Virus record (IMG/VR): IMGVR_UViG_3300036958_000333
Coordinates: 32,001 to 96,000 of that record
From: a virus
Taxonomy: Duplodnaviria > Caudoviricetes
Reading direction: 5' to 3' (one strand)
DNA: 64,000 nt
Under the pieces are notes generated by a model. It was not told the origin of the DNA. It saw nothing but the letters and a program-made list of their open reading frames with translations, and did no database searches. Each line of letters opens with the position of its first letter. The first letter of the stretch is position 1. A program made the position numbers and the translations under genes. Shown in pieces: positions 2,380 to 46,655 of this stretch.

Positions 2380-3837
2380 TTAGTTATAAGATAAAAATTT
2401 ATATTGTTTTATTGGAATTAATATATTTACTGTTGTTCCTTTATTTATTTTACTAAATATATTGATTTTTCCATTATGAAATTCTACTATTTTTTTACAC
2501 ATAAATAAACCTATTCCATTTCCTTGATATAAGCCGTCATGACACTTTTGAAACATTGAAAAAACTTTGTTTCTGAACCTTCCGTCAAAACCTATACCGT
2601 TATCTTTTATTGAAATTTTTACATAATCATCAAGCTTTTTATTTATAGTTATGTTTATTATTAAGTTTTCATTGTCTTTTTTAAATTTCATAGAATTATC
2701 TAAAATATTAACAAACAATTGTTCCAATATATTCTTATCACATTCTATATCAAAATCAATATTATTCTTTATAACTATCTTTGAATTTGTTTCATTTATT
2801 TTTAATGATAATAAATTAATCGAAGAATTTATTATATCATTAATATTATGATATTTAAAATCTATTAAATCTATTGACATTTTACATAATTTTGATATTC
2901 CTTTTATTAAATTTCGTATCTTATCTGCTGAATTTTTTATTAAACCAATGTTTTTTCTAGTTTTTTCATTTATTTCACTACTTTCTGAAATTATTTTATC
3001 AGAAAAAAATAATATTTTTCTCAATGGTTCTTTTAAATCATGAGATATAAAATTAGCAAAACTATATAATTCTTGATTTGATTTTTTTAATTCTTCATAA
3101 TAAACTTTCATTTGTTCATGAAATATTTTTTTTGATGTTATATCTCTTGCTATAGCTATAAACTTATTATGATCATTTGTTTTAAATATATTAAAATTAA
3201 TCCATCTATACGAACCATCAGTGTGTTTTATTCTTGCATCAAATTTTATACTTTTATAAATATTTAATTTATTAAATTCTTCTTCTATTATTTTTTTATC
3301 TAGTTGATGAGATAAGTTTAATATATTCTTATTAATTAAATTTTCTTTAAAAAACCCAAGGATTATTTTTGAACTTCCTGTTGTTTGTTCTATTATTTTT
3401 TCTTTATTAATTCTAAATACCATAAATGTTGGATTATTAAAAATTATTTCTTTTTCTTCATTACTAAATTTAAATGGAGATATATCGGTCAATATTCCAA
3501 AAATTAATGCAACTTTTCTATTATTATCGAATATTGGAGCAACTAGAACAATTGTTCGTATATTTTCTTTATCTTTTGAAAGAAAAACTTTTTCTGAAAC
3601 ATATACGTCTTCTTCTTCATTTTTTATTTTATTTAATCTAATATAAAGATCATCCCAACTACTTTTTGATAAAATATCTTTTAAATGTTTTTTTTTAAGC
3701 TCAGAACTACTATATCTCAATAATTTACAAAAATTTTTATTAAATTTTATTATTTTCCAATTAATATCAATTATTATCATTGATGATGGAAAAGTATTCC
3801 AAAAATTACATACATCAAAATTTATCTTACTAGTCAT
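2380..3837 (-). CDS. cytoplasmic PAS-PAS sensor histidine kinase
   Basis: two PAS-like domains (GILTDIS, DGSYRWI...ARDIT), H-box SHDLKEPLR, N-box NILDNSMKF, DNGIGF, GNGIGL; no TM segment seen. Confidence 0.92.
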   Translation of the reverse strand: MTSKINFDVCNFWNTFPSSMIIIDINWKIIKFNKNFCKLLRYSSSELKKKHLKDILSKSSWDDLYIRLNKIKNEEEDVYVSEKVFLSKDKENIRTIVLVAPIFDNNRKVALIFGILTDISPFKFSNEEKEIIFNNPTFMVFRINKEKIIEQTTGSSKIILGFFKENLINKNILNLSHQLDKKIIEEEFNKLNIYKSIKFDARIKHTDGSYRWINFNIFKTNDHNKFIAIARDITSKKIFHEQMKVYYEELKKSNQELYSFANFISHDLKEPLRKILFFSDKIISESSEINEKTRKNIGLIKNSADKIRNLIKGISKLCKMSIDLIDFKYHNINDIINSSINLLSLKINETNSKIVIKNNIDFDIECDKNILEQLFVNILDNSMKFKKDNENLIINITINKKLDDYVKISIKDNGIGFDGRFRNKVFSMFQKCHDGLYQGNGIGLFMCKKIVEFHNGKINIFSKINKGTTVNILIPIKQYKFLSYN

Positions 3838-4306: not shown

Positions 4307-7300
4307 TTAATACTCAAAATTTATAAAAAAATCTTTATAAGACTCCACTAAATTTTTCTTTACCTTACTATATTCCATATATCTATATATATTATATTTT
4401 TCAGTATTATTTGTTAAATATAAAGCTTCATCTATATTTATATAATTTATACCAGAAAATTTATAAACATCTTCGTAAAATGATGATACTATAACATCTG
4501 GATGTTCTTTTATTATATCTTTATAAGCATGAATAAATGCAAAATTATCACCAAGTCCCCCTGTTACTAATATCAACTTTGTTTTCCCTGGATATTTATT
4601 CCAAACCTTCATCTTCATATTAAAAACATTTTCATCATGATCCCATAAACTTTTATCACGATAACTCCTTATTCCTCCGCCACTTTCCCTAAAATGCCAT
4701 GTAATTATAGAACTATCTACTATTAATTTCCAACCGCTTCTTTTCATTTCATATGTAAATATAGTTTCCTCTCTATGACCAACTGGAGATAATTTTAAGC
4801 AATATCCGTGTTTTGATGCTTCTTTTCTATATAAAAAAGTACTATATAAATGATCTACTTCGTGTTTTCCTTCGTGTTTAACCCATTGACAATTAGGAAA
4901 AATAGATAAATCATTTATATTATTGTATGTAAAATTTTCTGGAATTCTTATATTTTGTAATGGATCTAATACCAATCCGGCAACTGCCCCAACATCATCT
5001 TTCATTTCTAATAATAATTTTTCTAAAACATTACTTTCAGCTAAATTGTCATCATCTAATCTCCATATATATTTATGTTTAGATATTTCTATTGATTTTT
5101 GATGATTTAAAACTTGACCTTTCTTTTCTCCAAATATAACACGCCACTCTATTCCATTTAAATCAAGATATTTAAATATATTTTCATATAAAGGGTTTTT
5201 TCTTAAATCTTCTTGGTCGCCATCATCAAATATTATTAGTTCTTTAGGTTTAACAGTTTGGTTTGCAATAGAAGTTATTGCTAGTGGTAAAGTCGTATTA
5301 TATCTATTTTTAGTTGAAATCATAGCAGTTACATCTGCATTATTAGTTATTAATTGTATGTTTTTTATGTCATCTTTTCTTTCAAATTTAAAAACTTTAT
5401 TATTATTATAAATAGTTTCCTCTTCTCCTTTTTCGTTTTTTTGTTTTGTATAAAAACTAACATTCCATATTTCTTTGTATCCTAAACTCATTATATAATC
5501 ATATAAATAATTTATTTCATATTTTGTTATTGGAGTTCCATGAATTTCTATAAATATTTTTTTAAATCTTTTTATCATTTTTTCATCACAAGACATTAAT
5601 ATCGGAAATTCAAATCCTTCACAATCAATTTTCAATATAATATCATTGTCATTTCTAAAATAAATGTTTAATATATCTTCTAGTGTAATTGTATAAGATA
5701 ATTTTTTTTCATTATTTATATTATTTATATCAACATTATCTTCTGAAACCATTGTGTTTTTTTCAATTTCTTCTAAATATACTATATTTTTACTTTTATC
5801 TGTAACTGCTACATTTATAGGTATTATGTTATTATATTTTTTTGTATTTTGTAAAAATAATTTGAAAGATTCAATATTAGGTTCTATTGAAACTATTTTA
5901 TTTGAACCATATTCTGCACATAATATAGAAAAAATACCATTATATGCACCTATGTCAAGAACATTTTTTTCAAAAACATCTTCTTTATTTAAAGAATATA
6001 AATTATTTTTAAATTCATCAAACACATAAGAATCTTGTGCTTTTAATTTTTCTATAAAACTTAAATCTAAGTTTAAATTATTAAAAACACCTAAATCATC
6101 TTTTTCTGTCATATTTACAATCCCTTTATCTCCATGTGTTCCAAGAATCTTTTTAACATATTTTGATTTTGTATTTTTAGAACATTCTTTTATAAATTGA
6201 TAATCATGATCAACAAAATTAGATTTTATATCATGTTCCCATTTATATGAAAATTTCTTCGCTAAGCTAGAATCAACCATAAAATTTAAACTATCTATAT
6301 CACCAAAAACAAACTCTCCTTCATTATGAGAAGAAGAAGGTATAATCTTTCCAAGCTCTACGTGTTCTATTTGACAATATGATATTTTATAATCTTTTTC
6401 GTTTATTATTTGAGATAACAACTCCCCAACATAGTTTTCATTAACAGTATTATCATCATCAACAAAACAAACAAATCCATTTTCTGGTATGATTTCTAAT
6501 ATTTTTTGCCTACATTTGCTTCCAAAAGCTCCTTCGTGTTTATCCAAATAATGATATTGAAATTCTATATCTGATTTTTTATTAAACTCATCAATTATAT
6601 GTTTTACCTTTTCATCATATCCATCTGCGCAAATATAAGATATTATATTTCTATATTTTTGTTTATTAATACTGTCTAGTGTTTTTCTTAATTTTAAATA
6701 TCTTTTATATGTTGGAGTTATTATATAAACTTTTTTACCATGTTTTTTAAATAATATTTGTAAATTTCTTTCTGTAATTTTATCCCAATCTTTTAAATCA
6801 AAAACTGTTCCTTCGGCTTTGTGATATATTGGGAAATCTCTACAATTAATATCATCTAATGGAACCTGGATTAATTTATATCCCTTATTTTCTGCTCTTA
6901 TACAAAAATCCATATCCTCGGCAAAACCTGGATTAAATATTTCATCAAGTAATCCTATTTCATCAAATATGTTTTTTTCAATCATGACGCAAAAAAATAA
7001 TAAAAATTTCCTGTTTATAATAGGACATCTTGATGCTAAAGGACCGGTTACTCCAACTTTGTCATTTTCTAAAAATGGTTTTTTGAGTATATTTATCCAT
7101 TGATTTTTTTCTTGATTCCTTAATATAGTATCATTATTAAGTAATATAATATAATTTCCATTAGATTGTTTTATTCCTTCATTTGTTGCTTTTGTATAAC
7201 CTAAAGGATCATCATACCATAACACTTTTATATTTTTTATTTTTTGATTATCGAGATATTCTTTGGTTCTATCTTTACATCCATTAGCAACTATAACTAT

Positions 7301-7405
7301 TTCAGTATCATTTAAATCAGTATATTCTATTATACTATTTAAACATGGAATAAGATTATCTTCTAAATGATTATAAGTAGGGATTATAATAGAATTCTTT
7401 ATCAA
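4307..7405 (-). CDS. multidomain glycosyltransferase: GT2 + GT2 + FkbM methyltransferase + GT2-like + GT9-like N-terminal piece
   Basis: SIIIPTYN...LLNNDT; IITPTYKR...FVDDDN; VLDIGAYNG...IEPN...LKIDCEGFE; IIFDDG...WRLDDDN; C-terminal TGGLGDNF. Confidence 0.88.
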   Translation of the reverse strand: MIKNSIIIPTYNHLEDNLIPCLNSIIEYTDLNDTEIVIVANGCKDRTKEYLDNQKIKNIKVLWYDDPLGYTKATNEGIKQSNGNYIILLNNDTILRNQEKNQWINILKKPFLENDKVGVTGPLASRCPIINRKFLLFFCVMIEKNIFDEIGLLDEIFNPGFAEDMDFCIRAENKGYKLIQVPLDDINCRDFPIYHKAEGTVFDLKDWDKITERNLQILFKKHGKKVYIITPTYKRYLKLRKTLDSINKQKYRNIISYICADGYDEKVKHIIDEFNKKSDIEFQYHYLDKHEGAFGSKCRQKILEIIPENGFVCFVDDDNTVNENYVGELLSQIINEKDYKISYCQIEHVELGKIIPSSSHNEGEFVFGDIDSLNFMVDSSLAKKFSYKWEHDIKSNFVDHDYQFIKECSKNTKSKYVKKILGTHGDKGIVNMTEKDDLGVFNNLNLDLSFIEKLKAQDSYVFDEFKNNLYSLNKEDVFEKNVLDIGAYNGIFSILCAEYGSNKIVSIEPNIESFKLFLQNTKKYNNIIPINVAVTDKSKNIVYLEEIEKNTMVSEDNVDINNINNEKKLSYTITLEDILNIYFRNDNDIILKIDCEGFEFPILMSCDEKMIKRFKKIFIEIHGTPITKYEINYLYDYIMSLGYKEIWNVSFYTKQKNEKGEEETIYNNNKVFKFERKDDIKNIQLITNNADVTAMISTKNRYNTTLPLAITSIANQTVKPKELIIFDDGDQEDLRKNPLYENIFKYLDLNGIEWRVIFGEKKGQVLNHQKSIEISKHKYIWRLDDDNLAESNVLEKLLLEMKDDVGAVAGLVLDPLQNIRIPENFTYNNINDLSIFPNCQWVKHEGKHEVDHLYSTFLYRKEASKHGYCLKLSPVGHREETIFTYEMKRSGWKLIVDSSIITWHFRESGGGIRSYRDKSLWDHDENVFNMKMKVWNKYPGKTKLILVTGGLGDNFAFIHAYKDIIKEHPDVIVSSFYEDVYKFSGINYINIDEALYLTNNTEKYNIYRYMEYSKVKKNLVESYKDFFINFEY

Positions 7406-7446: not shown

Positions 7447-9978
7447 TCAAAAATTTCCAAATATTTCATTTTCATCATTTATAGAAATTAACCCATTTGA
7501 TAAGACATAATTTCCACATTTTGTTTTTAAATCATAAGTTTTGCATTCGATATCTATTTTATCATATTTTAGATAGTTATTTAAAAATTTATGATTATCT
7601 GTGCAGATAAAATCATTGTACATTCTACCAGATAATGGATATAATGTTTCCTTACAGTATATATTAATTACTTCTGTTAGAATTTCTTTTCCATCTTTAA
7701 TACCAAAAACAGAATCACCGACTTTAAGATCTTTTATTTTAATTAGATTTCCAGGAAATTTTATTAACGTATTCCCGTCTAGACATTTATTATGTACAAG
7801 AAATCCATTTGCATAAAATGTTTCTGATGGACTTACTTTACTTAAATTATAAGTTTGAACATCACCTAAAACCTTTATCCATCCAATAATTTGTAAATAA
7901 CCATCAACTGTTTTTACATGATTTCCTAACTCTAATTTTTTTATTTCTAATTTTTCATTTCTATAATTTTGTGGATTTATGCTAGCCCATCCGTTATTTG
8001 TCATTATTGGATGTTCATCAGTTACTTTTAAAACTAAATCATTTTCAAATACAATATAGTAATAATGATCTCTAATAGGACTTTCTAAACTTTTAACCGT
8101 TCCGCCAATTACTTTATCTCCAATTATAATATCTTCTATATTTTTACACTCATTGTTTTCCATTAATATTTTTGTTCCAGCCAGAAAACAACATTCATAA
8201 TTTGTAAGAAGTCCATTTGAAAAATATAATTGATGAGCGGTTCCATAAAAATCTTCAAGATATAGATATTGTGAGATTCCAATATTTCCACTAACATCTT
8301 TATATCCAATTTCTGGCTGAATGTATCCGTTTATATATGGAGATGTGAATAAGCCCCAAAATAGTCCCCAGTCTTCCCCAACTCCTGGTTCACTTTCATA
8401 ACCATAAAAAGATGCATCATGTGAATTAATACATATATAAATGTTTCCATTTTTATAATTATAAACAATATCATTGATATAATAATATTCGCCAACGTCC
8501 CAGTCATATCTCCAATTAAAACCTAAACCAGAATATCCTGAATAACCGGATATACCAGAATAGCCGGATTTTCCAGAATAACCTGAAGTTCCTAAATATC
8601 CTGATTTTCCTGAATAACCAGATATACCTGAATATCCTATAAATGAAGATTGTGTTTCCCAAAAAGCCTCTCCAGAAACACCACACGATAATACATATCC
8701 AGAATTTGCTCCATTTGTTATAATTATTTTTTCGGTTCTTGTTGTTCCAAAAACATCACAAGTATATTCTGGATATCTATCTTCTCCAATACCAAAATAT
8801 CCTTCTCCTGTAATATATGCAACAGTTCTTTTGTCGATTTCAATATCACCAGTATAACCAGAATATCCAGACCCACAAGATAATAAAAATTTAAGAGTGG
8901 TTGGACAATTTACGTTTTCTCTACTTGTTCCATACCAATCTTGTTCAGCAGTACATTTTATATCAGCAGCATCTATTAATTTCCCACTGCTATAACTTCC
9001 TCTATATGTAACTGTTCCCAAATCTGTTCCGCTTGTTACTGGCAACATACTTTGATTGTTTCCAAATGTTTTTCCTAAAATAAAAACAGGAAACATTCCC
9101 ACATAACCTGAATTTCCAATTCCACTTTCTGTTCCATGTTGATATATTTGAATACTAGCATATTTAGTTGGATCATTTTGAGAAATAAAAATAGAAGGAT
9201 CTCCACCGCCATACTTATAACCACTTGTTCCTATAATTAATGTATCACTAATATTATTTAAATAAGTTACACCACTTGCTGGTATTCTATTGAAATATTG
9301 TATTCCAGCACCAGAATATCCAGATTTTCCGGAATAACCAAAATATCCTGAAATACCAGAATAACCAGAATATCCAGATATATTTTCTAAAAATAAATCC
9401 CAATAATCATAGTACGATCCTCCAATACCTGGTTCTGATCCAATATTTGATATATGATCTTCAATACAAATATATAAATTATTATTATGACTAATTATAT
9501 CATCAACATAATAATTTATTGATTCTTCCCACAAACTTTTCCATATTAATTTTTTACCAGAATACCCAGAATATCCAGATATACCAGAATAACCTGAATA
9601 TCCAGAAATACCAATTTCACCAGAATAACCAGATATACCAGAATAACCTGAATATCCGGATTCATTTTCATTAGACGATGAACATGTTGTCCATAATATT
9701 CCATTACATGCAAATATTTGTGATAATCCTGATTTGATAGTTGAAATTATATCTTCATTATCGTTTTTTATAATTAAAGAATAAGAAGAAGATGTATTTA
9801 TTATTGTATATTTTAATCCATTACAAGATTCTTCATTTGGTAATATAACATATTTGTCAGAATCTTTAGGTTCTAAAAATAATATTTGCTTATCTGATTC
9901 TAAAATTATTGTTTTATCATCGTTTAATTCTTCGGTAGAAGATTCTTCAAATATATTATTGTATTTTATATAAACCAT
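7447..9978 (-). CDS. SGX collagen-like fibre protein with CBM5/12-like modules and C-terminal tandem Hint domains (copy 1)
   Basis: SGYSGISGY repeats; W..W...Y..DD..S.N..LYIC...H modules; CFLAGT...TDEHP...NGFLVHN followed by CLDGNT...TDNH...NGLISIN. Confidence 0.85.
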   Translation of the reverse strand: MVYIKYNNIFEESSTEELNDDKTIILESDKQILFLEPKDSDKYVILPNEESCNGLKYTIINTSSSYSLIIKNDNEDIISTIKSGLSQIFACNGILWTTCSSSNENESGYSGYSGISGYSGEIGISGYSGYSGISGYSGYSGKKLIWKSLWEESINYYVDDIISHNNNLYICIEDHISNIGSEPGIGGSYYDYWDLFLENISGYSGYSGISGYFGYSGKSGYSGAGIQYFNRIPASGVTYLNNISDTLIIGTSGYKYGGGDPSIFISQNDPTKYASIQIYQHGTESGIGNSGYVGMFPVFILGKTFGNNQSMLPVTSGTDLGTVTYRGSYSSGKLIDAADIKCTAEQDWYGTSRENVNCPTTLKFLLSCGSGYSGYTGDIEIDKRTVAYITGEGYFGIGEDRYPEYTCDVFGTTRTEKIIITNGANSGYVLSCGVSGEAFWETQSSFIGYSGISGYSGKSGYLGTSGYSGKSGYSGISGYSGYSGLGFNWRYDWDVGEYYYINDIVYNYKNGNIYICINSHDASFYGYESEPGVGEDWGLFWGLFTSPYINGYIQPEIGYKDVSGNIGISQYLYLEDFYGTAHQLYFSNGLLTNYECCFLAGTKILMENNECKNIEDIIIGDKVIGGTVKSLESPIRDHYYYIVFENDLVLKVTDEHPIMTNNGWASINPQNYRNEKLEIKKLELGNHVKTVDGYLQIIGWIKVLGDVQTYNLSKVSPSETFYANGFLVHNKCLDGNTLIKFPGNLIKIKDLKVGDSVFGIKDGKEILTEVINIYCKETLYPLSGRMYNDFICTDNHKFLNNYLKYDKIDIECKTYDLKTKCGNYVLSNGLISINDENEIFGNF

Positions 9979-9986
9979 AAGACACC

Positions 9987-12494
9987 TTAAAAATTTCCAA
10001 ATATTTCATTTTCGTCATTTATAGAAATCAATCCATTAAATAACATATAATTCCCACATTTTGTTTTTAAATCATACATTTCTTGTATAATATTTATTTT
10101 ATCATATTTTAAATTATTATTTAAAAATTTATGATTGTCTGTACAAACAAAATCATTATACATTCTACCAGACAATGGATTTAATGTTTCCTTACAATAT
10201 ATATTAATTACTTCTGTTAAAATTTCTTTTCCATTTTTAATACCAAAAACAGAATCACCAACCTTAAGATCTTTTATTTTAACTGAACTTCCTGGAACTT
10301 TTATTAATGTATTTCCATCTAAACATTTATTATGCACAAGAAATCCATTTGCATAAAATGTTTCTGACGGACTTACTTTGCTTAAATTATATGTCTGTAT
10401 ATCACCTAAAACCTTTATCCACCCAATAATTTGCAAATAACCATCAGTTGTTTTCACATAGTTTCCTAATTCTAATTTATTTACTTCTAATTTTTTATCT
10501 TTATAATTTTGTGGATTTATGCTAGCCCAACCATCACTTGTCATTATTGGATGTTCGTCAGTAATTTTTAATACTAAATCATTTTCAAATACAACATAAT
10601 AATAATGATCTCTAATTGGATTTTCTAAACTTTCAACAATTCCACCAATTACTTTATCTCCAACAATTATATCTTCTATATTTTTACATTCATTGTTTTC
10701 CATTAAGATTTTTGTTCCAGCTAAAAAACAACAAGTTGTAGAATAAGCTTTAAAAATGCCATTTGAAAATTTTAAAGTATAAGTTCTATCAAAGCCTCTA
10801 TATGTTATATCTTGTGTTTTTCCAATATTCCCATTAACATCTTTATATCCGCTTTCTGGTTGTATATATCCACCTGTACCCTTAGCTAAAGGACGCCAGT
10901 AATCTTTATTAGTAGGTAATATATATTGAATCGATGATTTAGAAATACAAACATAAGTATTTCCAATATAATATACTACATCTCCAGCTCTATAAATAAA
11001 ACTAGCAACAAATGACCCTCTCCATATTAATTCATTACCACTATAACCGCTTGTTCCAATGCCTGAATAACCTGATTTTCCTGAATATCCTGAATAACCA
11101 GATTTTCCTGAATAACCAGATTTTCCGGAATATCCTGAAGTTCCTGGAAAAGAGTATAATGATTTCCAAGAAGCTTCTCCAGAAACACCACAAGATAATA
11201 CATATCCAGAATTTGCTCCGTTTGTTATGATTATTTTTTCGGTTCTTGTTGTGCCAAAAACATCACATGTATATTCTGGATATTTATCTTTTCCAATACC
11301 AAAATATCCTTCACCTGTAATATATGCTATAGATCTTTTATCATTTTCAATATTTCCAGTATAACCAGAATATCCTGATCCGCAAGTTAACATAAATTTT
11401 ATATGAGACGGAGAATTTATTTTTTCTCCATTAACATTCCAATTTTGAGTAGTTGTACATTTTATATCAGCAGCATCTATTAATTTACCGTTACTATAAC
11501 TTCCTCTATATGAAACAGATCCCAAAGTAGTACCGCTTGTTACTGGTAATAAACTTTGATTATTTCCAAATGTTTTTCCTAGAACAAGAGATGAATATCG
11601 TCCTTTATATCCAGATGTTCCAATTCCACTTTCTGTTCCATGTTGATATACTTGAAAACTAGCATATTCTAATGGATTATTTTGAGAAATAAGAATAGAA
11701 ATATCTCCACCACCATATTTATAACCACTTGTTCCTATAATTAATGTGTCATTGATATTACTCATATATGTTGTTCCGCTTTCTGGTATTCTATCAAAAT
11801 ACTGTATTCCAACTCCAGTATATCCAGATTTTCCTGAATAACCAGAATATCCTGAATATCCTAAAATACCAGAATATCCAGAATATCCAGAATAGTTTTC
11901 TAAAAATATATTCCAATAGTTTTCATATTCTTCACCAACTCCTGGTTCTGAAATATCACTTGAAATATGATCTAAAACACAAACATATAGATTATTATTA
12001 TTACTAACTGTATAGTTAACAAAATAATACGCTGAATTTTTATGCCATGAACCAACCCATATTAATTTTTTACCAGAATACCCAGAATATCCAGATATAC
12101 CAGAATAACCTGAATATCCAGAAATACCAATTTCACCAGAATAACCAGATATACCAGAATAACCTGAATATCCAGATTCACTTTCATTAGATGACGAACA
12201 TGTTGTCCACAATATTCCATTACAGACAAATATTTGCGATAATCTGGCTTTGATAGTTGAAATTATATCTTCATTATCATTTTTTACAATTAAAGAATAA
12301 GAAGAAGATATATTTATTATTGTATATTTCAATCCATTACAATATTCTTCGTTTGGTAATATAACACTTTTATCAGAATCTTTAGGTTCTAAAAACAATA
12401 TTTGTTTATCTGATTCTAAAATTATTGTTTTATCATCGTTTAATTCTTCAGTAGAAGATTCTTCAAATATATTATTGTATTTTATATAAGCCAT
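9987..12494 (-). CDS. SGX collagen-like fibre protein with tandem Hint domains (copy 2)
   Basis: same architecture as 7447-9978; near-identical N-terminus and Hint cassette. Confidence 0.85.
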   Translation of the reverse strand: MAYIKYNNIFEESSTEELNDDKTIILESDKQILFLEPKDSDKSVILPNEEYCNGLKYTIINISSSYSLIVKNDNEDIISTIKARLSQIFVCNGILWTTCSSSNESESGYSGYSGISGYSGEIGISGYSGYSGISGYSGYSGKKLIWVGSWHKNSAYYFVNYTVSNNNNLYVCVLDHISSDISEPGVGEEYENYWNIFLENYSGYSGYSGILGYSGYSGYSGKSGYTGVGIQYFDRIPESGTTYMSNINDTLIIGTSGYKYGGGDISILISQNNPLEYASFQVYQHGTESGIGTSGYKGRYSSLVLGKTFGNNQSLLPVTSGTTLGSVSYRGSYSNGKLIDAADIKCTTTQNWNVNGEKINSPSHIKFMLTCGSGYSGYTGNIENDKRSIAYITGEGYFGIGKDKYPEYTCDVFGTTRTEKIIITNGANSGYVLSCGVSGEASWKSLYSFPGTSGYSGKSGYSGKSGYSGYSGKSGYSGIGTSGYSGNELIWRGSFVASFIYRAGDVVYYIGNTYVCISKSSIQYILPTNKDYWRPLAKGTGGYIQPESGYKDVNGNIGKTQDITYRGFDRTYTLKFSNGIFKAYSTTCCFLAGTKILMENNECKNIEDIIVGDKVIGGIVESLENPIRDHYYYVVFENDLVLKITDEHPIMTSDGWASINPQNYKDKKLEVNKLELGNYVKTTDGYLQIIGWIKVLGDIQTYNLSKVSPSETFYANGFLVHNKCLDGNTLIKVPGSSVKIKDLKVGDSVFGIKNGKEILTEVINIYCKETLNPLSGRMYNDFVCTDNHKFLNNNLKYDKINIIQEMYDLKTKCGNYMLFNGLISINDENEIFGNF

Positions 12495-13729
12495 TAAAAA
12501 TTTCCAAATATTTCATTTTCGTCATTTATAGAAATTAATCCATTAGATAATATATAACTACCACATTTTGTTTTTAGATCATAAGTTTTACAATCAATAT
12601 TTATTTTATCATAATTCAAATTATTATTTAAGAACTTATGATTTTCTGTACAAGCAAAACCATCATATATTCTACCAGGCAATGGATTTAATGTTTCTTT
12701 ACAATATATATTAATCACTTCGGTAATAATTTCTTTTCCATCTTTAATTCCAAATACAGAATCACCAATTTTAATATCTTTTATACATATTGGATTTGCG
12801 GCAGTTTCTATTAATGTATTTCCTTCTAAACATTTATTATGAACTAGAAATCCATTAGCATAAAACGTTTCTGACGGACTTACTTTGCTTAAATTATATG
12901 TTTGTATATCACCTAAAACTTTTATCCATCCAATTATTTGTAGATAACCATCAACTGTTTTTACATGATTTCCTAATTCTAATTTCTTTACTTCTAACTT
13001 TTTACTTTTATATTTTTGTGGGTTTATGCTAGCCCAACCATTGTTTGTCATTATTGGATGTTCATCAGTCATTTTTAAAACTAAATCATTTTCAAATACA
13101 ATATAATAATAATGATCTCTAATTGGATTCTCAAGACTTTCAACTATTCCACCAATTATTTTATCTCCAATTATTATATCTTCTATATTTTTACATTCAT
13201 TGTTTTCCATTAATATTTTTGTTCCAGCAAGAAAACAACATTCTAGCAAATATTGATAATATGTCAAAATTCCATCTTTGAAACCAATTTGATGTAAAGG
13301 TTGTCCAATATCGTCATAAATTGTCATATTATATATTAGTGTTACGCCAGAAGTTCCGTCAGATGATTTATATCCGCCTGTTGGTTTCAAATAACCATCA
13401 ACATATGGAGCAGATGTTCCACTATATCCTGAAATACCAGAATATCCAGAATAACCAGATTTACCAGAATATCCACTATCGCCAGAAATACATTGTAAAA
13501 ATAATTCCCAATAATCATTTTCTCCACCTGATTCTGATCCACCTTCTGTTTCATGAGCAATAATACAGATATAAATTTTACCATTGTATGATACTAAATC
13601 ATTTACTTCATAACTTCCTTCACCATTAAAATAAGGTCCTTTCCAATTCCATGTTATATCTTTGCCAGAATAACCTGAATATCCAGATACAGATTTTCCT
13701 ATAGAATTAAAATTTATTAACGATCCCAT
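12494..13729 (-). CDS. short SGX fibre protein with tandem Hint domains (copy 3)
   Basis: INFNSIGKS N-terminus, one CBM-like module, SGY repeats, same Hint-Hint cassette. Confidence 0.85.
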   Translation of the reverse strand: MGSLINFNSIGKSVSGYSGYSGKDITWNWKGPYFNGEGSYEVNDLVSYNGKIYICIIAHETEGGSESGGENDYWELFLQCISGDSGYSGKSGYSGYSGISGYSGTSAPYVDGYLKPTGGYKSSDGTSGVTLIYNMTIYDDIGQPLHQIGFKDGILTYYQYLLECCFLAGTKILMENNECKNIEDIIIGDKIIGGIVESLENPIRDHYYYIVFENDLVLKMTDEHPIMTNNGWASINPQKYKSKKLEVKKLELGNHVKTVDGYLQIIGWIKVLGDIQTYNLSKVSPSETFYANGFLVHNKCLEGNTLIETAANPICIKDIKIGDSVFGIKDGKEIITEVINIYCKETLNPLPGRIYDGFACTENHKFLNNNLNYDKINIDCKTYDLKTKCGSYILSNGLISINDENEIFGNF

Positions 13730-13753
13730 TTTTAACCTTTATTTCACTACATC

Positions 13754-15448
13754 TTAAAAATTTCTAAATATTTCGTTTTCATCATTTATAGAAATTAACT
13801 CATTAGACAATATATAATTTCCACATTTCGTTTTTAAATCATAAGTATCACATTCAATGTCTATTTTATCATATTTTAAATTATTATTTACAAAAATATG
13901 ATTATCTGTACAAATAAAATTTCTATACATTCTACCAGGTAGTGAATATAATGACTCTTTTTTATAAATATTAATAACTTTTGTAACAACTTCTTTTCCA
14001 TCTTTAATTCCAAATACAGAATCACCGACTTTAATATCTTTTATTTTAATTGGATCTCCAGGAACTTTTATCAATGTATTTCCATCTAAGCATTTGTTAT
14101 GAACTAGAAACCCATTGGCATAAAATGTTTCTGATGGACTTACTTTACTTAAATTATAAGTTTGAACATCACCTAAAACCTTTATCCACCCAATAATTTG
14201 TAAATAACCATCAGTTGTTTTTACATAATTTCCCAATTCTAATTTTTTTACTTCTAATTTTTTACTTTTATATTTTTGTGGGTTTATACTAGACCACCCA
14301 TCTCTTGTCATTATTGGATGTTCATCAGTCATTTTTAAAACTAAATCATTTTCAAATACAATATAATAATAATGATCTCTAATTGGATTTTCTAAACTTT
14401 CAACAATTCCACCAATTACTTTATCTCCAATTATTACATCTTCTATATTTTTACATTCATTGTTTTCCATTAATATTTTTGTTCCAGCAAGAAAACAACA
14501 TTCGGAACCATAATATATCAATAATCCATCAATAAAATTAAACATATGTCTAACGCTATATTCAGGATCAAATATACTTATAACATCAAGTGGCGATACT
14601 CCAGAGTTTCCTGTAGTTGCTTTATATCCACTAAATGGTTGTAAATAACCATCAACATATGGAGCAGATGTTCCGCTGTATCCTGAAATACCACTATAAC
14701 CAGATATACCAGAATACCCACTTGTACCAGCTGCTCCAGAATAACCAGAAATACCAGAATAACCAGAAATACCAGAATAACCACTTGTACCAGCTGCTCC
14801 AGAATAACCAGAAATACCAGAATAACCACTTGTTCCAACAATTCCAGAATAACCAGAAATACCTGAATGACCTGTTTCTCCAGAATATCCAGAAATTCCA
14901 GAATAACCACTTGTACCAGCTGCTCCAGAATAACCAGAAATACCAGAATAACCAGATATATTAGATTCTCCTGAATAACCTGATATTCCACTATAACCAG
15001 ATTCTCCTGAATAACCTGATACTCCACTATAACCAGATTCTCCGGATACGCCAGTTTCTCCTGGTAAACCATCTTTTCCAGAATATCCAGACATTCCAGA
15101 ATAACCAGATTCACCAGAATAACCAGATATGTTTTCTAGAAACAAATCCCAAAATATATATTCTCCGCTACCACCAGGTTCTGTAATATCTGAACCATGA
15201 TCTTCAATACAAATATATAAATTATTATTATGACTAACTATATCATCAATCAAATACATTCCATAACTTGTATTCCAAGATCCTCTCCATTCTAATTTTT
15301 TACCTGAATAACCTGATATTCCACTATAACCAGATTCTCCGGATACGCCAGTTTCTCCTGGTAAACCATCTTTTCCAGAATATCCAGAATATCCTGATTC
15401 AGATTTTCCTATAGAATTAAAATTTATTGCAGATCCAGTTAATACCAT
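13754..15448 (-). CDS. SGX fibre protein with long repeat tract and tandem Hint domains (copy 4)
   Basis: INFNSIGKS N-terminus, about 150 aa of (S-G-X)n, same Hint-Hint cassette. Confidence 0.85.
   Translation of the reverse strand: MVLTGSAINFNSIGKSESGYSGYSGKDGLPGETGVSGESGYSGISGYSGKKLEWRGSWNTSYGMYLIDDIVSHNNNLYICIEDHGSDITEPGGSGEYIFWDLFLENISGYSGESGYSGMSGYSGKDGLPGETGVSGESGYSGVSGYSGESGYSGISGYSGESNISGYSGISGYSGAAGTSGYSGISGYSGETGHSGISGYSGIVGTSGYSGISGYSGAAGTSGYSGISGYSGISGYSGAAGTSGYSGISGYSGISGYSGTSAPYVDGYLQPFSGYKATTGNSGVSPLDVISIFDPEYSVRHMFNFIDGLLIYYGSECCFLAGTKILMENNECKNIEDVIIGDKVIGGIVESLENPIRDHYYYIVFENDLVLKMTDEHPIMTRDGWSSINPQKYKSKKLEVKKLELGNYVKTTDGYLQIIGWIKVLGDVQTYNLSKVSPSETFYANGFLVHNKCLDGNTLIKVPGDPIKIKDIKVGDSVFGIKDGKEVVTKVINIYKKESLYSLPGRMYRNFICTDNHIFVNNNLKYDKIDIECDTYDLKTKCGNYILSNELISINDENEIFRNF
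14660..15130. repeat. imperfect 9-nt-period coding tandem repeat (CCAGAATAA/CCAGAAATA) encoding SGY/SGI
   Basis: directly visible; similar tracts near 8530-8640, 9310-9380, 9560-9660, 11040-11140, 11820-11890 and 12070-12180. Confidence 0.9.
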
Positions 15449-15456
15449 TTCTTACC

Positions 15457-16599
15457 TCACGTAATATTATTATATATAACAATCCATTCTAACTTATAGT
15501 TATTAGAATCTATACTACTAGAAAAAAATACATCAAATCCATTATTTGATTTATTTCTTATTATATATGTATATTGAGATGGATATAAATCAATAGAATT
15601 GCTTAAATTTATATTTATTGAATAATTAGTATCTAAAAAAGAAAAATCAAAATCTACATGAACAAATGAATCACCAATATTAATATCTTTTATTCCATTC
15701 TGAAAACTTTTTAAATAAATAACATGTCCTCTATAATTATGAAAAAACCCAGAAGAACTTGATGTAGAAAAAAATAAAGGCTTAGATACATGATATTCCT
15801 CAGTAGGCTCTGTTAATGTTAATTTTCCATCTTCTTCATCACTAAGATAATAAATTTTTCCACTTGTTAAATCTGATAATCCTGAAATATACCCTTCTGT
15901 TAATAAAATAAATTCATTTTCATTTTTTATCTCTATAACAACTCCAATCACTTCTGAATTTTCTATAGAATCAGCTTTAGATTTTACATAAGAAGTTCCG
16001 TTATGTCTTAAAACATCTAAAACTTCAAATTCATGATCTTCCTGTGTTATTTTTAATAATGTTCCATTAGTATTGGCAGTTTCAGGTATTAAATATCCTC
16101 TAAAATTAAAGAACATACCTGAATTTGAAGAATCAGCTATTAATAATGGCTTAGAAACACGACCTATTTCAGTTGGTTCTATTTCAGTTAACATTCCAGC
16201 ATCAGTATCACTTAAATAGTATACTGTTCCTGGAACTAATGAATATAAAGTTATATCTTGAATTCTTCCTTGTAATAGTAAATAAAAATTATCTTCATCT
16301 ATTACTTTTGTTATTATTCCAATTGCTTCTGAATTATCTTCTGTATCGGCTTTAGCCAATACATATCCATCTACTATATCATATCTTACTATATAACCAA
16401 CCTGTCCAACAGTAAACCCATGACCTGGTTGATATATTTTAAATTTTTCTACAGATCCACCACCGGTTTCTTCAATTTTATCTAAAAATTTTTGAAAATC
16501 AATAAATTGAAGTCCAGTTCCTCTTTTTGCTTTTTGAACTACAATGTAGTCTGGAGGATAATCACAATAATATTCATTTGGCCATTTTCTAATTACCAT
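15457..16599 (-). CDS. putative virion/tail protein with two internal repeats
   Basis: duplicated about 120-aa module (H.F.V...Y..AKAD..ENSE.IG...G..YYLS...G.LT..EPTE...VSKPL); C-terminal fibre-like domain; first gene of the fibre run. Confidence 0.65.
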   Translation of the reverse strand: MVIRKWPNEYYCDYPPDYIVVQKAKRGTGLQFIDFQKFLDKIEETGGGSVEKFKIYQPGHGFTVGQVGYIVRYDIVDGYVLAKADTEDNSEAIGIITKVIDEDNFYLLLQGRIQDITLYSLVPGTVYYLSDTDAGMLTEIEPTEIGRVSKPLLIADSSNSGMFFNFRGYLIPETANTNGTLLKITQEDHEFEVLDVLRHNGTSYVKSKADSIENSEVIGVVIEIKNENEFILLTEGYISGLSDLTSGKIYYLSDEEDGKLTLTEPTEEYHVSKPLFFSTSSSSGFFHNYRGHVIYLKSFQNGIKDINIGDSFVHVDFDFSFLDTNYSININLSNSIDLYPSQYTYIIRNKSNNGFDVFFSSSIDSNNYKLEWIVIYNNIT

Positions 16600-22521: not shown

Positions 22522-23650
22522 ATATCCTATTTCTTTCAAGAATATTTATGAAGGAGTTGTTTGTTCTCAAGATTCTAGAATATCTGTATTTTGGACCGGG
22601 CCATTAGGAGCTCCAGCAGGAACAAAAGATTCTCAATGGTTAATAGAACCTGGAGAAATAAAATTATATAATAATTCATCTGAGCCATATAAAAATATGC
22701 AAAATATTACTTTTATTTGTGAATTTGATTCTGAAACAAATCTTGCCCCTGGGCCAGGTGGATATAATGCAAAACAATCTCCAGGATCTGATCCAAGACC
22801 ATTGTTATTAAAAGAATCTACTGAAATAGTTCCTTCTGATAAGTATATAAGTTATCAACAAAGATCGGATTTTACAGATGGAGAAGTTTTATCTGGTACA
22901 GGAGATGGAACAATATTTTTAACATCAGCTAAATTAGAGATTTGGATACCATTTTGTAATTATCCTCAAGATGAAGAATCAGAACTTGTAGATGAATATA
23001 TTATACCACCAGAAAGAGATGATCCTAATTTTTCTAATTGGGTCGGTGGATCTAATCGCGACGAAGGATTTGTTGATAAATACTATAAAAATCAAATATT
23101 ACATATAAAAACGTCTGGAAATAATCAAGGATATTATATTATTAAAAGTGTTTCATGGAATGGATCAGAATTTGAAATTACAATAGATCCTACTGGAGAA
23201 TATGGAGGATTGTATAAAGAAAATGGATTGTCTGGAAACATATTAGCAAATATGCCAGGATCAAAAAGATTTGAGATAGAATATATAGATGGAATATATT
23301 ATTGTGACGGTTGGGTTGATACTTTAGGAGAAAATACTGATAGACCTGGGTATTATTATTATACAAAACCTAATAATATAACCCAACAAGCCGTAGATAT
23401 TCAAACAGAATTACAAGAAAATGCAAGTTCGTATACGTGTGAGATAATTATAAACCCAGTAGGATCAAATCTTAAAGAATATATACCACTACATATTTTT
23501 CAAATTGTTCCATATTGGCTAATTGAAAGTAAAATTGATTCTAATGATATTATACCGGCATGGAAATTTACATTAAAAAGTATAGTAAGAGAAATAGATA
23601 AATTAAGTTCAAGAATTAAAAATTATTGGGAAAATCTTGATGGATCATAA
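22463..23650 (+). CDS. putative structural protein (true start probably 22514)
   Basis: Gly/Pro-rich acidic protein; shares a motif with 20300-21358. Confidence 0.5.
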   Translation: MVNIVLILILKLITEIIMNKYPISFKNIYEGVVCSQDSRISVFWTGPLGAPAGTKDSQWLIEPGEIKLYNNSSEPYKNMQNITFICEFDSETNLAPGPGGYNAKQSPGSDPRPLLLKESTEIVPSDKYISYQQRSDFTDGEVLSGTGDGTIFLTSAKLEIWIPFCNYPQDEESELVDEYIIPPERDDPNFSNWVGGSNRDEGFVDKYYKNQILHIKTSGNNQGYYIIKSVSWNGSEFEITIDPTGEYGGLYKENGLSGNILANMPGSKRFEIEYIDGIYYCDGWVDTLGENTDRPGYYYYTKPNNITQQAVDIQTELQENASSYTCEIIINPVGSNLKEYIPLHIFQIVPYWLIESKIDSNDIIPAWKFTLKSIVREIDKLSSRIKNYWENLDGS

Positions 23651-45518: not shown

Positions 45519-46655
45519 ATGGGTAAAAAAAATAAAAGTAATGAAACTGAAAAAGAAAATAAAAATTTGTCAAATATGCAAATTATTGAAGATATATGCA
45601 AAAACATAGAAAATGCAGAAGTACTTGATTCTGATGATGTTGCTAATATTAGATTTGTAAGTACTGGAAATCTTGCAATGGATTTTGTAAGTTCTGGTAA
45701 ATTCTGGGGTGGAGGAATACCTTTAGGAAGAATAACAGAAATATATGGAGAATCATCTACAGGAAAAACCGTAATAGGAACTCATATATTACAAAATATA
45801 CAAAAAATTGGCGGAATAGGAGTATTAATAGACAGCGAATCAGCATATTCGGTTCCATTTGCAAAAAATCTTGGAATTGATACTCAACAATTAATATATT
45901 TACAACCAGATTGTTTAGAAGATTGTTTTATAAAAATTAAAAAAATAATAAATTATATAAGATCCAACAGCACAGACATGAGACCAGTAGCTATTGTATA
46001 TGATTCAATAGCAGCATCTCCGTCAAGAAAAGAAATAGAAAAAATGAAAAACGAATCAGACCTTGGATCGTTAATGGGCCACAGAGCATTAGTATGTTCT
46101 GATTACTTGAGAAATATGGTTCAATTAATAAAAAAACAACAAGTTGCTATAATAATTATAAATCAAGTAAGAAGTAAAATAGGGGTTATGTTTGGAGATA
46201 AGGATACTACCGCTGGGGGAGGAAGGTCGCTAGCTTATTATGCGGCTATAAGAAATCGTTGTATGGGAACAAAGAAAATATTAGATAGTAGAAAAATACC
46301 TATTGGTGTATTTATGAAAATAAAGAACACAAAAAATAAAATCTCTAATCCATTTAGAGAAACAGAAAATATAGAATTGATATTTGATAAGGGTATTAAT
46401 CCATTATCTGGATTATTAAGTTTATTAGAAATAGAAGGAAAAGTAAAAAGATCTGGAGCTTGGTATCAATTAGATAATGGAAATAAGTTTCAGGAAAAAG
46501 GATTTAAAGATATTTTAATTAATAATCCAGAATTAATTGATGCTAAAAAATCAGAAGATATAGTTAAATTTCTAGAAATTAATAGTCAGTCATTAAATTA
46601 TTTAGATGATAAAGAAATTATATTAGAAGATATAGAAATTTCAGAAGATGTATGA
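45519..46655 (+). CDS. uvsX: RecA/UvsX recombinase
   Basis: STGNLAMD, GGIPLGRITEIYGESSTGKT, IDSE, YDSIAA, INQVR, GGRSLAYYA, KNKI, SGAWY. Confidence 0.92.
   Translation: MGKKNKSNETEKENKNLSNMQIIEDICKNIENAEVLDSDDVANIRFVSTGNLAMDFVSSGKFWGGGIPLGRITEIYGESSTGKTVIGTHILQNIQKIGGIGVLIDSESAYSVPFAKNLGIDTQQLIYLQPDCLEDCFIKIKKIINYIRSNSTDMRPVAIVYDSIAASPSRKEIEKMKNESDLGSLMGHRALVCSDYLRNMVQLIKKQQVAIIIINQVRSKIGVMFGDKDTTAGGGRSLAYYAAIRNRCMGTKKILDSRKIPIGVFMKIKNTKNKISNPFRETENIELIFDKGINPLSGLLSLLEIEGKVKRSGAWYQLDNGNKFQEKGFKDILINNPELIDAKKSEDIVKFLEINSQSLNYLDDKEIILEDIEISEDV

What the first reader, a model, noticed from the sequence alone, without database searches (positions are those of the whole stretch)
7447..15448. Four tandem collagen-like fibre genes, each capped by a double-Hint autoprocessing cassette (main candidate novel system)
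Seen: all four proteins end in the same 248-aa cassette. It comprises C-CFLAGT...TDEHP...YNL...ANGFLVHN (a complete 134-aa Hint with Cys1, block-B TxxH and terminal His-Asn), a single Lys, then CL(D/E)GNT...T(D/E)NH...YDL...N(G/E)LISIN (a minimal 103-aa second Hint with Cys1, TxxH and terminal Asn but no penultimate His), and a 9-aa tail. Upstream are Gly-every-third-residue SGX tracts and CBM5/12-like Trp modules. Known: Hint domains (inteins, BILs, Hedgehog) form a thioester at Cys1, and splicing needs C/S/T at +1; the +1 residues here are Lys and Asp, so canonical splicing is not expected. Inference: the cassette may be a self-cleaving folding/trimerisation propeptide in the role peptidase-S74 chaperones play in other fibres. 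Alternatively it may be a Hedgehog-like ligase that attaches a nucleophile (amine, sugar, lipid or another virion protein) to the fibre C-terminus. I do not know of a described phage fibre array with back-to-back Hints.
Basis: partly seen in the sequence, partly recalled or inferred. Interest (0 to 1): 0.88.

Follow-up and report, generated by a model that had tools for sequence, protein, structure and literature searches.

The report
Phage fibres capped by two Hints
Four neighbouring collagen-like fibre genes of an uncultured giant phage each end in two back-to-back intein-like (Hint) self-processing domains, which most likely cut themselves off the finished fibre, and their closest studied relative instead links its cargo to lysines.

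Summary
Four co-oriented, tightly packed minus-strand ORFs (843, 835, 411 and 564 aa) carry Gly-X-Y tracts and CBM5/12-like modules. Each ends in Cys, a 134-aa Hint1, one Lys, a 103-aa Hint2 and a 9-aa tail.

Hint1 is a type-A bacterial intein-like (BIL) domain. Its closest solved relatives are Tetrahymena BUBL BIL2 (6TMM/6Y75) and C. thermocellum BIL (2LWY). Hint2 models confidently as a minimal Hint fold. It keeps Cys1 and T-x-N-H in all relatives, but its terminal Asn is not conserved.

Both domains are under purifying selection, and the cassette is the most conserved part of each paralog.

The +1 Lys is a family hallmark (K/R in 82–95% of copies). Tandem Hints of this family are common in archaeal MAGs and in at least 267 viral contigs. 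The Hint1-K-Hint2 unit itself is rare (11 clusters found), always C-terminal and always on long fibrous proteins.

Homologous CBM5/12-collagen fibres carry a Peptidase_S74 chaperone in the same position. The best reading is therefore a self-removing C-terminal cap, with Lys-directed ligation as the interesting alternative.

I found no paper describing this. The scan has noted single-Hint fibre ends on other DNA. I rate it a new variant of a known kind.

The parts
7447..9978 (-). Fibre gene F843 (843 aa): N-terminal domain, 3 Gly-X-Y tracts (33 triplets), CBM5/12-like modules, central domain, pre-Hint module, double-Hint cassette
   Evidence: ORF; Pfam Collagen and CBM_5_12 above cut-off; tracts
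8191..8328 (-). F843 pre-Hint module (aa 551-596): conserved anchors GYIQP..GYK..G..G and F.NGLL around a variable core; ends in Cys(-1)
   Evidence: also conserved in the other double-cassette proteins
7789..8190 (-). F843 Hint1 (aa 597-730), type-A BIL: Cys1, TDEH, terminal His-Asn
7786..7788 (-). F843 +1 Lys (aa 731), the only linker residue between the two Hints
   Evidence: family statistics
7450..7785 (-). F843 Hint2 (aa 732-834: Cys1, TDNH, YDL, ...SIN) plus 9-aa tail DENEIFGNF
9987..12494 (-). Fibre gene F835 (835 aa), paralog of F843 (72% aa identity upstream of the cassette); its start overlaps the stop of F411 by one base
10731..10871 (-). F835 pre-Hint module (aa 542-588)
10329..10730 (-). 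F835 Hint1 (aa 589-722)
10326..10328 (-). F835 +1 Lys (aa 723)
9990..10325 (-). F835 Hint2 (aa 724-826) plus tail
12494..13729 (-). Fibre gene F411 (411 aa): short N-terminus, CBM5/12-like module, one Gly-X-Y tract (8 triplets), pre-Hint module, cassette
13238..13396 (-). F411 pre-Hint module (aa 112-164)
12836..13237 (-). F411 Hint1 (aa 165-298)
12833..12835 (-). F411 +1 Lys (aa 299)
12497..12832 (-). F411 Hint2 (aa 300-402) plus tail; this is the copy that was modelled
13754..15448 (-). Fibre gene F564 (564 aa): 61 Gly-X-Y triplets, CBM5/12-like region, pre-Hint module, cassette
   Evidence: (Collagen E 8e-27)
14498..14650 (-). F564 pre-Hint module (aa 267-317)
14096..14497 (-). F564 Hint1 (aa 318-451)
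14093..14095 (-). F564 +1 Lys (aa 452)
13757..14092 (-). F564 Hint2 (aa 453-555) plus tail DENEIFRNF

Best explanation
The four genes encode paralogous trimeric collagen-like fibres of a giant (about 273 kb) uncultured phage. Each is made as a precursor whose C-terminus carries a self-removing cap of about 27 kDa, built from two Hint domains.

Hint1 is a type-A bacterial intein-like (BIL) domain. Its Cys1, assisted by the T-D-E-H block, converts the fibre-Cys1 peptide bond into a thioester. Its terminal Asn, assisted by the penultimate His, cyclises and breaks the Asn|Lys bond. As in characterised type-A BILs, the thioester is then mostly hydrolysed, which releases the fibre. In a fraction of molecules it is instead attacked by the freed amino group of the +1 Lys, joining the fibre to Lys-Hint2.

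Hint2 is a truncated Hint that keeps only the N-terminal chemistry (Cys1 and T-x-N-H). It then activates and cuts the Lys-Cys bond. By either route, the mature fibre loses both Hints and exposes its variable pre-Hint tip, ending in ...Cys or ...Cys-Lys.

The cap occupies the position held by the self-cleaving Peptidase_S74 intramolecular chaperone in homologous fibres. It probably serves the same purpose: assisting or checking C-terminal folding and chain registration, then leaving.

Shown here: the domain identities, the conserved catalytic residues, purifying selection and the positional equivalence. Inferred: that cleavage happens, the order of steps, and the chaperone role.
For: 1. Hint1 belongs to the type-A BIL group. 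The profile of A2 hits BUBL BIL2 (6TMM/6Y75) at E 2e-20 and CthBIL (2LWY) at E 2e-13. Foldseek's top hit is 6y75, with TM (target) 0.80 and rmsd 2.0 A.
2. Catalytic residues are conserved across the family. Among database representatives: Cys1 255/255, His-Asn 243/255, +1 Lys 189 and Arg 19 of 255. Among viral copies: Cys1 91/91, His-Asn 90/91, Lys 66 and Arg 20 of 91.
3. Hint2 is a Hint fold. The model has pLDDT 86.5. All top 29 hits of an aligner independent of Foldseek are inteins, BIL or Hog domains, with Z up to 10.5 and rmsd 1.3-2.1 A. Its sequence profile hits 2LWY at E 2.5e-5.
4. In Hint2, Cys1 and the N-H of the T-x-N-H block are invariant in all 12 copies and its Thr is kept in at least 90%, whereas the terminal Asn is not conserved and two proteins stop before it.
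5. Selection: dN/dS is 0.09-0.19 for Hint1 and 0.15-0.46 for Hint2, at dS 0.3-0.8. The cassette is 85-87% identical between paralogs, against 41-72% upstream.
6. Homologous CBM5/12 -> collagen fibres end in Peptidase_S74 directly after the collagen tract.
7. Type-A BIL chemistry (thioester, Asn cyclisation, cleavage dominant, amino-group attack possible) is established in PMC4031507.
Against: No experiment or proteomic data exist for these proteins, so cleavage is inferred from sequence alone. If Hint1 simply cleaved, Hint2 would need no catalytic residues. Their strict conservation suggests that the Lys-Cys thioester has a purpose beyond clean-up. The near-universal +1 Lys/Arg, kept even where the protein ends in ...HNK-stop (13 viral proteins), also hints at a productive acyl transfer rather than plain hydrolysis. 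There is no sequence similarity to Peptidase_S74, and there is no evidence that Hint domains promote trimerisation.
Confidence: 0.55

Rival explanations
1. Productive acyl transfer (self-ligation). The Hint-generated thioesters are not wasted by hydrolysis. The fibre C-terminus is transferred to the +1 Lys, on either its alpha- or epsilon-amine. Hint2 then re-activates that Lys carboxyl as a second thioester, which is captured by an amine. The amine could be the freed Lys amine of a neighbouring chain, which would covalently staple the three chains of the trimer. It could also be a Lys of another virion protein, which would anchor or branch the fibre.
For: The closest solved relative, BUBL BIL2, is reported to form K(epsilon-NH2)-C-terminus isopeptide bonds and to conjugate its upstream domain to other proteins (PMC8616854). 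The +1 residue is Lys in 73-74% of family members and is retained as the very last residue of 13 viral proteins. Hint2's Cys1 and N-H (T-x-N-H block) are invariant, its Thr is nearly so, and the domain is under purifying selection, although plain removal of the cap would not need them. With a one-residue linker, both active centres must lie next to each other; this follows from Hint topology and is an inference. F411 and F564 have almost no N-terminal attachment domain.
Against: Arg replaces Lys in 7-22% of copies, which an epsilon-amine nucleophile cannot explain, although an alpha-amine mechanism tolerates it. Characterised type-A BILs mostly cleave (PMC4031507, PMC7664689). Hint2 is not followed by any adduct-recognition region such as the one in Hedgehog. 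No acceptor has been identified.
Confidence: 0.22
2. Neutral or selfish passenger plus recombination anchor. BIL-type Hints spread by tandem duplication and persist at gene ends because they excise themselves. In this phage the constant cassette mainly serves, at the DNA level, as a conserved 3' anchor that lets the variable fibre tips be exchanged between paralogs.
For: Arrays of 2-7 tandem copies are common in this family. BILs are described as residing in hypervariable regions of non-conserved proteins and as contributing to variability (PMC7765530). In three of four paralog pairs the cassette has a lower dS (0.34-0.44) than the upstream region (0.60-0.84), which is compatible with some gene conversion. 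The variable pre-Hint core lies between conserved anchors.
Against: Strong purifying selection acts at the protein level on both domains. The specific Hint1-K-Hint2 unit is conserved at 37-49% identity across unrelated fibrous proteins, always in the same terminal position. That argues for a selected protein function and not just tolerance.
Confidence: 0.13
3. Non-catalytic structural knob. The two Hint folds stay on the fibre as its distal head (for example a receptor-binding domain), and the catalytic-looking residues are kept for structural or metal-binding reasons.
For: Hint folds have been recruited to non-catalytic roles (AXH domains score against the same profile). BUBL BIL2 binds Zn through His residues.
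Against: The full catalytic set is conserved family-wide (Cys1, T-x-x-H, His-Asn in Hint1; Cys1, T-x-N-H in Hint2). A receptor-binding head would be expected to vary between paralogs, yet the cassette is the least variable part.
Confidence: 0.1

Closest known systems
Type-A bacterial intein-like (BIL) domains (Amitai 2003; Dassa 2004; CthBIL4 structure 2LWY)
   Same: Hint fold, Cys1, block-B T-x-x-H, terminal His-Asn, no +1 nucleophile, and residence in variable non-housekeeping proteins. The profile hits 2LWY at E 2e-13.
   Different: Here the BIL sits at the extreme C-terminus of phage collagen-like fibres. It has a near-invariant +1 Lys and is followed directly by a second, truncated Hint rather than by host protein.
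BIL2 of the Tetrahymena thermophila BUBL1 polyubiquitin-like locus (PDB 6TMM/6Y75; Chiarini et al. 2021)
   Same: It is the best sequence match (E 2e-20) and the best structural match (TM 0.80) to Hint1. It lacks a +1 nucleophile, and it is an autoprocessing domain placed after a cargo domain.
   Different: BUBL BIL2 lies between two ubiquitin-like domains in a eukaryote and is reported to conjugate the upstream one to lysines. Here the cargo is a fibre, the downstream partner is another Hint, and no conjugation has been shown.
Peptidase_S74 intramolecular chaperone domains of phage tail fibres and endosialidases (PF13884)
   Same: They hold the same position: a C-terminal self-cleaving module immediately after the collagen tract in homologous CBM5/12-collagen fibres (P0032, P0035, P0037). 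The presumed role is the same, a cap that is discarded after folding.
   Different: The fold and chemistry are unrelated (a Ser-Lys dyad against a Cys thioester plus Asn cyclisation). Pfam finds no S74 match in the window proteins.
Pretoxin-HINT (PF07591) autopeptidases of polymorphic toxins
   Same: A Hint domain near the C-terminus of long filamentous or tail-fibre-repeat proteins, predicted to release what follows it (PMC3482391). PF07591 hits many family members.
   Different: No toxin domain or immunity gene follows. The downstream domain is itself a Hint fold, and PF07591 does not reach significance on the window proteins.
Hedgehog/Hog C-terminal autoprocessing domains
   Same: Hint2, like Hog, conserves only the N-terminal chemistry (Cys1 and T-x-x-H), with no conserved C-terminal Asn. 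1AT0 gives Z 8.0 against Hint2.
   Different: No sterol- or adduct-recognition region follows Hint2; there are only 0-9 residues in most relatives. Sequence similarity is closer to BILs than to Hog.

Membership tests
Type-A BIL domain (Hint1) | Hint (Hedgehog/intein) fold | tested here: met
   The model has pLDDT 82. Foldseek's top hits are 6y75, 6tmm, gp41-1 intein and 2lwy, with TM (target) 0.76-0.86.
Type-A BIL domain (Hint1) | N-terminal Cys/Ser nucleophile and block-B T-x-x-H | tested here: met
   CFLAGT and TDEH are present in all four copies. Cys1 is present in 255/255 family copies.
Type-A BIL domain (Hint1) | C-terminal His-Asn | tested here: met
   All four copies end in VHN. His-Asn is present in 243/255 family copies.
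Type-A BIL domain (Hint1) | No nucleophilic residue at +1 | tested here: met
   The +1 residue is Lys in all four copies. In the family it is Lys/Arg in 208 of 255 copies and Cys/Ser/Thr in only 16 of 255.
Type-A BIL domain (Hint1) | Significant sequence similarity to characterised A-type BILs | tested here: met
   2LWY at E 1.9e-13; BUBL BIL2 at E 2.4e-20.
Type-A BIL domain (Hint1) | Autocatalytic N- and C-terminal cleavage | not testable with these tools
   Needs expression and mass spectrometry.
Canonical (class 1) intein | Cys/Ser/Thr at +1, allowing a branched intermediate and extein ligation | tested here: not met
   The +1 residue is Lys after Hint1 and Asp after Hint2.
Canonical (class 1) intein | Insertion inside a conserved host protein whose sequence continues after the intein | tested here: not met
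   Nothing but another Hint and a 9-aa tail follows. The Hint2-type module is terminal in all 11 clusters found.
Hint fold (Hint2) | Fold match to solved Hint domains over most of the domain | tested here: met
   With VIA-align the top 29 hits are all Hint domains, Z 10.5-4.7, 66-76 residues at rmsd 1.3-2.1 A, spanning model residues 1-105. Foldseek gives E 2.6e-5 to 6tmm.
Type-B BIL / Pfam Hint_2 (Hint2) | Match to PF13403 above the gathering score | tested here: inconclusive
   The score is 28.3 bits against a cut-off of 28.4, and only over the first ~36 residues. The structure-based identity is highest to the A-type BIL 2LWY (30%).
Hedgehog/Hog domain (Hint2) | Hint followed by a sterol/adduct-recognition region | tested here: not met
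   Only a 9-aa tail follows, and relatives have 0-17 residues, except one with about 50.
Peptidase_S74 intramolecular chaperone | Match to PF13884 | tested here: not met
   No hit in any of the four proteins at E <= 0.01. It is present in homologous fibres at the equivalent position.
Polymorphic toxin with pretoxin-HINT | C-terminal toxin domain after the Hint and an adjacent immunity gene | tested here: not met
   The domain after Hint1 is a Hint fold. The next gene is another fibre paralog or a glycosyltransferase.
Collagen-like phage fibre | Uninterrupted Gly-X-Y tracts matching PF01391 | tested here: met
   The four proteins hold 8-61 triplets, and PF01391 is above its cut-off in three of them. 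PHROG tail-fibre families reach E 1.5e-34, largely through the repeats.

The most novel reading that the evidence does not exclude
The Hint1-Lys-Hint2 unit is a two-stage protein ligase. Hint1 moves the fibre's C-terminus onto the conserved Lys, and Hint2 turns that Lys into a second thioester. Each chain then offers one free amine and one activated carboxyl at the same point. The three chains of the fibre are stapled together through a small lysine ring, or the fibre is covalently welded to another virion protein. This would be an ATP-independent, enzyme-free covalent cross-link not known in phage assembly.
Probability: 0.2. Interest if true: 0.85.

Novelty: new variant of a known kind. Interest (0 to 1): 0.58.

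Why it matters
Self-cleaving C-terminal caps of phage fibres are so far known mainly as Peptidase_S74 chaperones. This locus shows a chemically different, thioester-based cap in the same place, used four times in one phage. It belongs to a very large family of lysine-followed BIL domains in viruses and archaea that has hardly been studied. If the thioesters are used productively, this would be a natural system for site-specific, ATP-free protein ligation at a fibre tip. That would bear on virion assembly and could be useful as a protein-engineering tool. The 411-aa paralog is a small, directly testable model.

Tried and rejected
- Homotrimer prediction of the cassette (3 copies of A2): no verdict, score 0.34 against a mark of 0.42. 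This is not evidence either way.
- Search of deposited phage genomes with the cassette: only weak matches to an intein region in S16-like UvsW helicases. With the fibre body there was no match.
- Scan of genome contigs. With the P0063 cassette it found no relative.
- Word-based search for Hint2 in longer proteins found only the window's own paralog. The profile of 12 cassettes added one protein, P0203.
- No whole genome is held for this window, so other copies elsewhere in the phage could not be sought.
- P0017, which lies on a contig of similar size, turned out to be cellular and not a related phage.
- Cluster look-up gave no organism names for the double-cassette proteins.
- NCBIfam gave only sub-threshold intein N/C-terminal hits.
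- Literature searches for BIL or Hint domains with collagen-like phage proteins returned nothing. The search combining Hint domain with tail fiber gave only unrelated inteins and polymorphic-toxin work.
- The idea that the +2 Cys (Cys1 of Hint2) acts as the splice nucleophile of Hint1 was rejected as a family-wide mechanism. Linkers after His-Asn-Lys vary from 1 to 6 residues in tandem arrays.

Full report
**What is there**

The window has about 22% G+C. It encodes family-A DNA polymerase, DnaB-like and RecA/UvsX-like proteins. The exact 411-aa fibre protein is on record on a contig of 272,848 bp. RecA is at most 37% identical to that of any deposited phage, so this is an uncultured giant phage with no close relative in the collection. 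No whole genome is held for it.

Between 7447 and 15448 lie four co-oriented minus-strand ORFs of 843, 835, 411 and 564 aa. They are separated by 8, -1 and 24 nt. A 380-aa ORF precedes them after an 8-nt gap, and a 1032-aa multi-glycosyltransferase/methyltransferase follows them after a 41-nt gap. This layout is consistent with a single operon, which is my inference.

All four proteins contain uninterrupted Gly-X-Y tracts, mostly G-Y-S, of 8 to 61 triplets. Pfam Collagen reaches E 8e-27. CBM5/12-like modules are above Pfam's cut-off in two proteins.

**The cassette**

Each protein ends in the following order:
- a Cys at position -1;
- Hint1, 134 aa (CFLAGT...TDEHP...YNL...ANGFLVHN);
- a single Lys;
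- Hint2, 103 aa (CL[D/E]GNT...T[D/E]NH...YDL...LISIN);
- the tail DENEIF[G/R]NF.

HMMs of each half find only these four copies in the six-frame translation of the window.

**Hint1 is a type-A BIL domain**

Pfam gives only sub-threshold Hint-family hits on the window proteins. A profile built from 30 relatives (A2) is much clearer. It hits the BIL2 domain of the Tetrahymena BUBL1 locus (6TMM/6Y75) at E 2e-20. It hits the C. thermocellum BIL domain 2LWY at E 2e-13, and mini-inteins more weakly.

The AlphaFold model of the cassette has mean pLDDT 82. Its best Foldseek match is again 6y75, with TM 0.80 over the target and rmsd 2.0 A.

An exhaustive search of 1.84 billion representative proteins found 2,456 relatives at E <= 1e-3 and 660 at E <= 1e-10. 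Across 255 full-length copies in the best 150-odd proteins:
- Cys1 is invariant;
- His-Asn ends 243 copies;
- the next residue is Lys in 189 and Arg in 19, against Cys/Ser/Thr in only 16.

The same holds in 73 distinct proteins from viral contigs: Cys1 91/91, His-Asn 90/91, Lys 66 and Arg 20. Thirteen of those proteins end exactly in ...HNK-stop.

**Tandem Hints are common**

Many family members carry 2 to 7 back-to-back copies joined by linkers of 1-6 residues (K, KC, KG, KGG, KGS...). The longest arrays carry source names from Thermoplasmata and Nanoarchaeota MAGs.

At least 267 IMG/VR contigs encode a relative. Recurrent viral layouts include:
- an N-terminal domain of about 470 aa followed by 1-3 Hints;
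- a BIL followed by a different second Hint (CFLAGT...GSH...) and a helical tail.

**Hint2**

Modelled alone from 12 sequences, Hint2 reaches pLDDT 86.5. Foldseek's best hits are BUBL BIL2 and 2LWY, at E 3e-5.

An aligner that does not depend on Foldseek ranks 29 Hint-fold structures first. These are inteins, BIL, Vint and Hedgehog domains, with Z 10.5 to 4.7 and rmsd 1.3-2.1 A over 66-76 residues. The unrelated small beta-barrels below them score Z <= 3.6. The Hint2 sequence profile also finds 2LWY, at E 2.5e-5. So Hint2 is a genuine, minimal Hint.

A local HMM separates a discrete Hint2 subfamily. Eleven clusters, including the window's, score 82-158 bits, and the next best scores 33. In every one:
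- it directly follows ...HN-K (one case has HN-A-K);
- it is the last domain of the protein;
- the protein is a long fibrous protein, most with signal-peptide-like N-termini.

Their contigs are phage-like or mobile-element-like in some cases: P0071 lies next to an SU10-type adaptor, and P0081 lies among small ORFans with a weak Zot match. Others are cellular, such as P0063 on a 265-kb contig with metabolic genes.

Across the 12 aligned copies, Cys1, a G-D pair, the N-H of the T-x-N-H block and a Y-D pair are invariant, and the Thr is kept in at least 90%. The terminal Asn of the window copies is replaced by Cys, Phe, Glu, Gly or Ala elsewhere. Two proteins stop right after the Y-D-F strand. 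Hint2 therefore conserves only the chemistry of the N-terminal junction.

**Selection**

Between the four paralogs, synonymous divergence is substantial (dS 0.3-0.8). dN/dS is 0.09-0.19 for Hint1 and 0.15-0.46 for Hint2. The cassette is the best-conserved part of each protein, at 85-87% amino-acid identity against 41-72% upstream.

For the F843/F835 pair, dS is the same in both parts (0.44 and 0.46). This fits whole-gene duplication and not recent invasion. In the other pairs the cassette has a somewhat lower dS, so some gene conversion is possible.

**The pre-Hint module**

The roughly 50 residues before Cys1 are also shared with the other double-cassette proteins. The pattern is GY-x-P/S..G..G-[IV]-[ST]...variable...F-x-[DN]-G-L-[LI]. 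Within the phage, the core between these anchors varies strongly. After removal of the cassette, this module would be the extreme C-terminal tip of the fibre.

**Positional equivalence to Peptidase_S74**

Relatives of the N-terminal part of the 411-aa protein (CBM5/12, then collagen) end in a Peptidase_S74 intramolecular chaperone directly after the collagen tract (P0032, P0035, P0037). The window's proteins have no S74 match. Two unrelated self-cleaving modules thus occupy the same place in homologous fibres.

**How it most likely works**

Type-A BILs form a thioester at their N-terminus and cleave their C-terminus by Asn cyclisation. Cleavage products dominate, and the freed amino group can attack the thioester to ligate the flanks (PMC4031507; PMC7664689).

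Applied here, Hint1 releases the fibre, or in a fraction of molecules joins it to Lys-Hint2. Hint2 then activates and cuts the Lys-Cys bond. Either way the 27-kDa cap leaves.

A basic +1 residue (Lys or Arg) would lower the pKa of the new alpha-amine. That is my inference for why both residues are tolerated.

The strict conservation of Hint2's catalytic residues, and of the Lys even at protein ends, is not fully explained by plain removal. The closest solved relative is reported to make Lys-epsilon isopeptide bonds and to conjugate its cargo to other proteins (PMC8616854). I therefore keep productive ligation as the main rival, either stapling of the trimer or welding to another virion protein.

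**Novelty**

I found no paper on Hint or BIL domains at the ends of phage collagen-like fibres. Polymorphic-toxin work describes Hint autopeptidases after tail-fibre-type repeats, but those precede toxin domains (PMC3482391).

The scan's own earlier notes report single BIL-type Hints ending phage and giant-virus fibres on other DNA, with the same lysine observation. I re-derived that statistic independently here.

The specific Hint1-Lys-Hint2 unit, its rarity and its four-fold use in one phage are new. The kind of element (BIL autoprocessing domains) is known.

**Verdict**

- Observation: confirmed.
- Class: new variant of a known kind.
- Interest: 0.58.

Noticed in passing
window 4307-7405 (-): A 1032-aa protein lies directly downstream of the fibre genes and is co-oriented with them. 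It has three glycosyltransferase family-2 regions and an FkbM-type methyltransferase domain, and is a candidate fibre-glycosylating enzyme.
   Followed up: partly
window 2380-3837 (-): A phage-encoded sensor histidine kinase (two PAS domains, HisKA, HATPase_c) lies at the end of the same gene string.
   Followed up: no
window 15457-16599 (-): A 380-aa ORF lies immediately upstream of the first fibre gene. By eye it has an internal duplication (two copies of ...YYLSD..G.LT..P......SKPL...S.SG.F.N.RG). It matches only PHROG 22645, of unknown function.
   Followed up: partly
window 8191-8328, 10731-10871, 13238-13396, 14498-14650 (-): The ~50-aa pre-Hint module has conserved anchors around a strongly variable core. 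It would become the fibre's C-terminal tip after processing, so it is a possible receptor-binding determinant.
   Followed up: partly
window 34918-36342 (+) and 46648-48216 (+): Two DUF7487 proteins sit among the replication genes, one with a weak MTES_1575 restriction-endonuclease-like region. They are possibly homing-type nucleases.
   Followed up: no
window 38460-39788 (+): The family-A DNA polymerase ORF (442 aa) matches only positions 101-379 of the Pfam model, so the polymerase may be split or have an unusual N-terminus.
   Followed up: no
window 23637-25442 (+): A 601-aa radical SAM protein.
   Followed up: no
L015:214-2958, L043:4573-6900, L037:1888-3795, L060:4582-6459 and about 10 more viral loci: A conserved N-terminal domain of about 470 aa with no Pfam or PHROG match (starts MKGT.FSADF..D..G.L.LLE.NTDT, which looks ATP-grasp-like by eye). 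It is followed by one to three BIL Hints, and the protein ends exactly in ...VHNK-stop.
   Followed up: partly
L025:4789-6879, L057:4795-6870, L052:838-2904, L055, L076, L011, L073, L030, L031: A second recurrent viral double cassette. It consists of a type-A BIL ending in HN-K, a short or poly-Gly linker, a different second Hint (CFLAGT...GSH...NRRI.IN) and a helical tail. Some of the proteins have Gly-rich or Gly-X-Y regions.
   Followed up: partly
P0060, P0197, P0198, P0061 (database proteins): Proteins from Thermoplasmata and Nanoarchaeota MAGs carry up to seven back-to-back BIL domains joined by K, KG, KGG or KC linkers. What such arrays are for is unexplained.
   Followed up: partly
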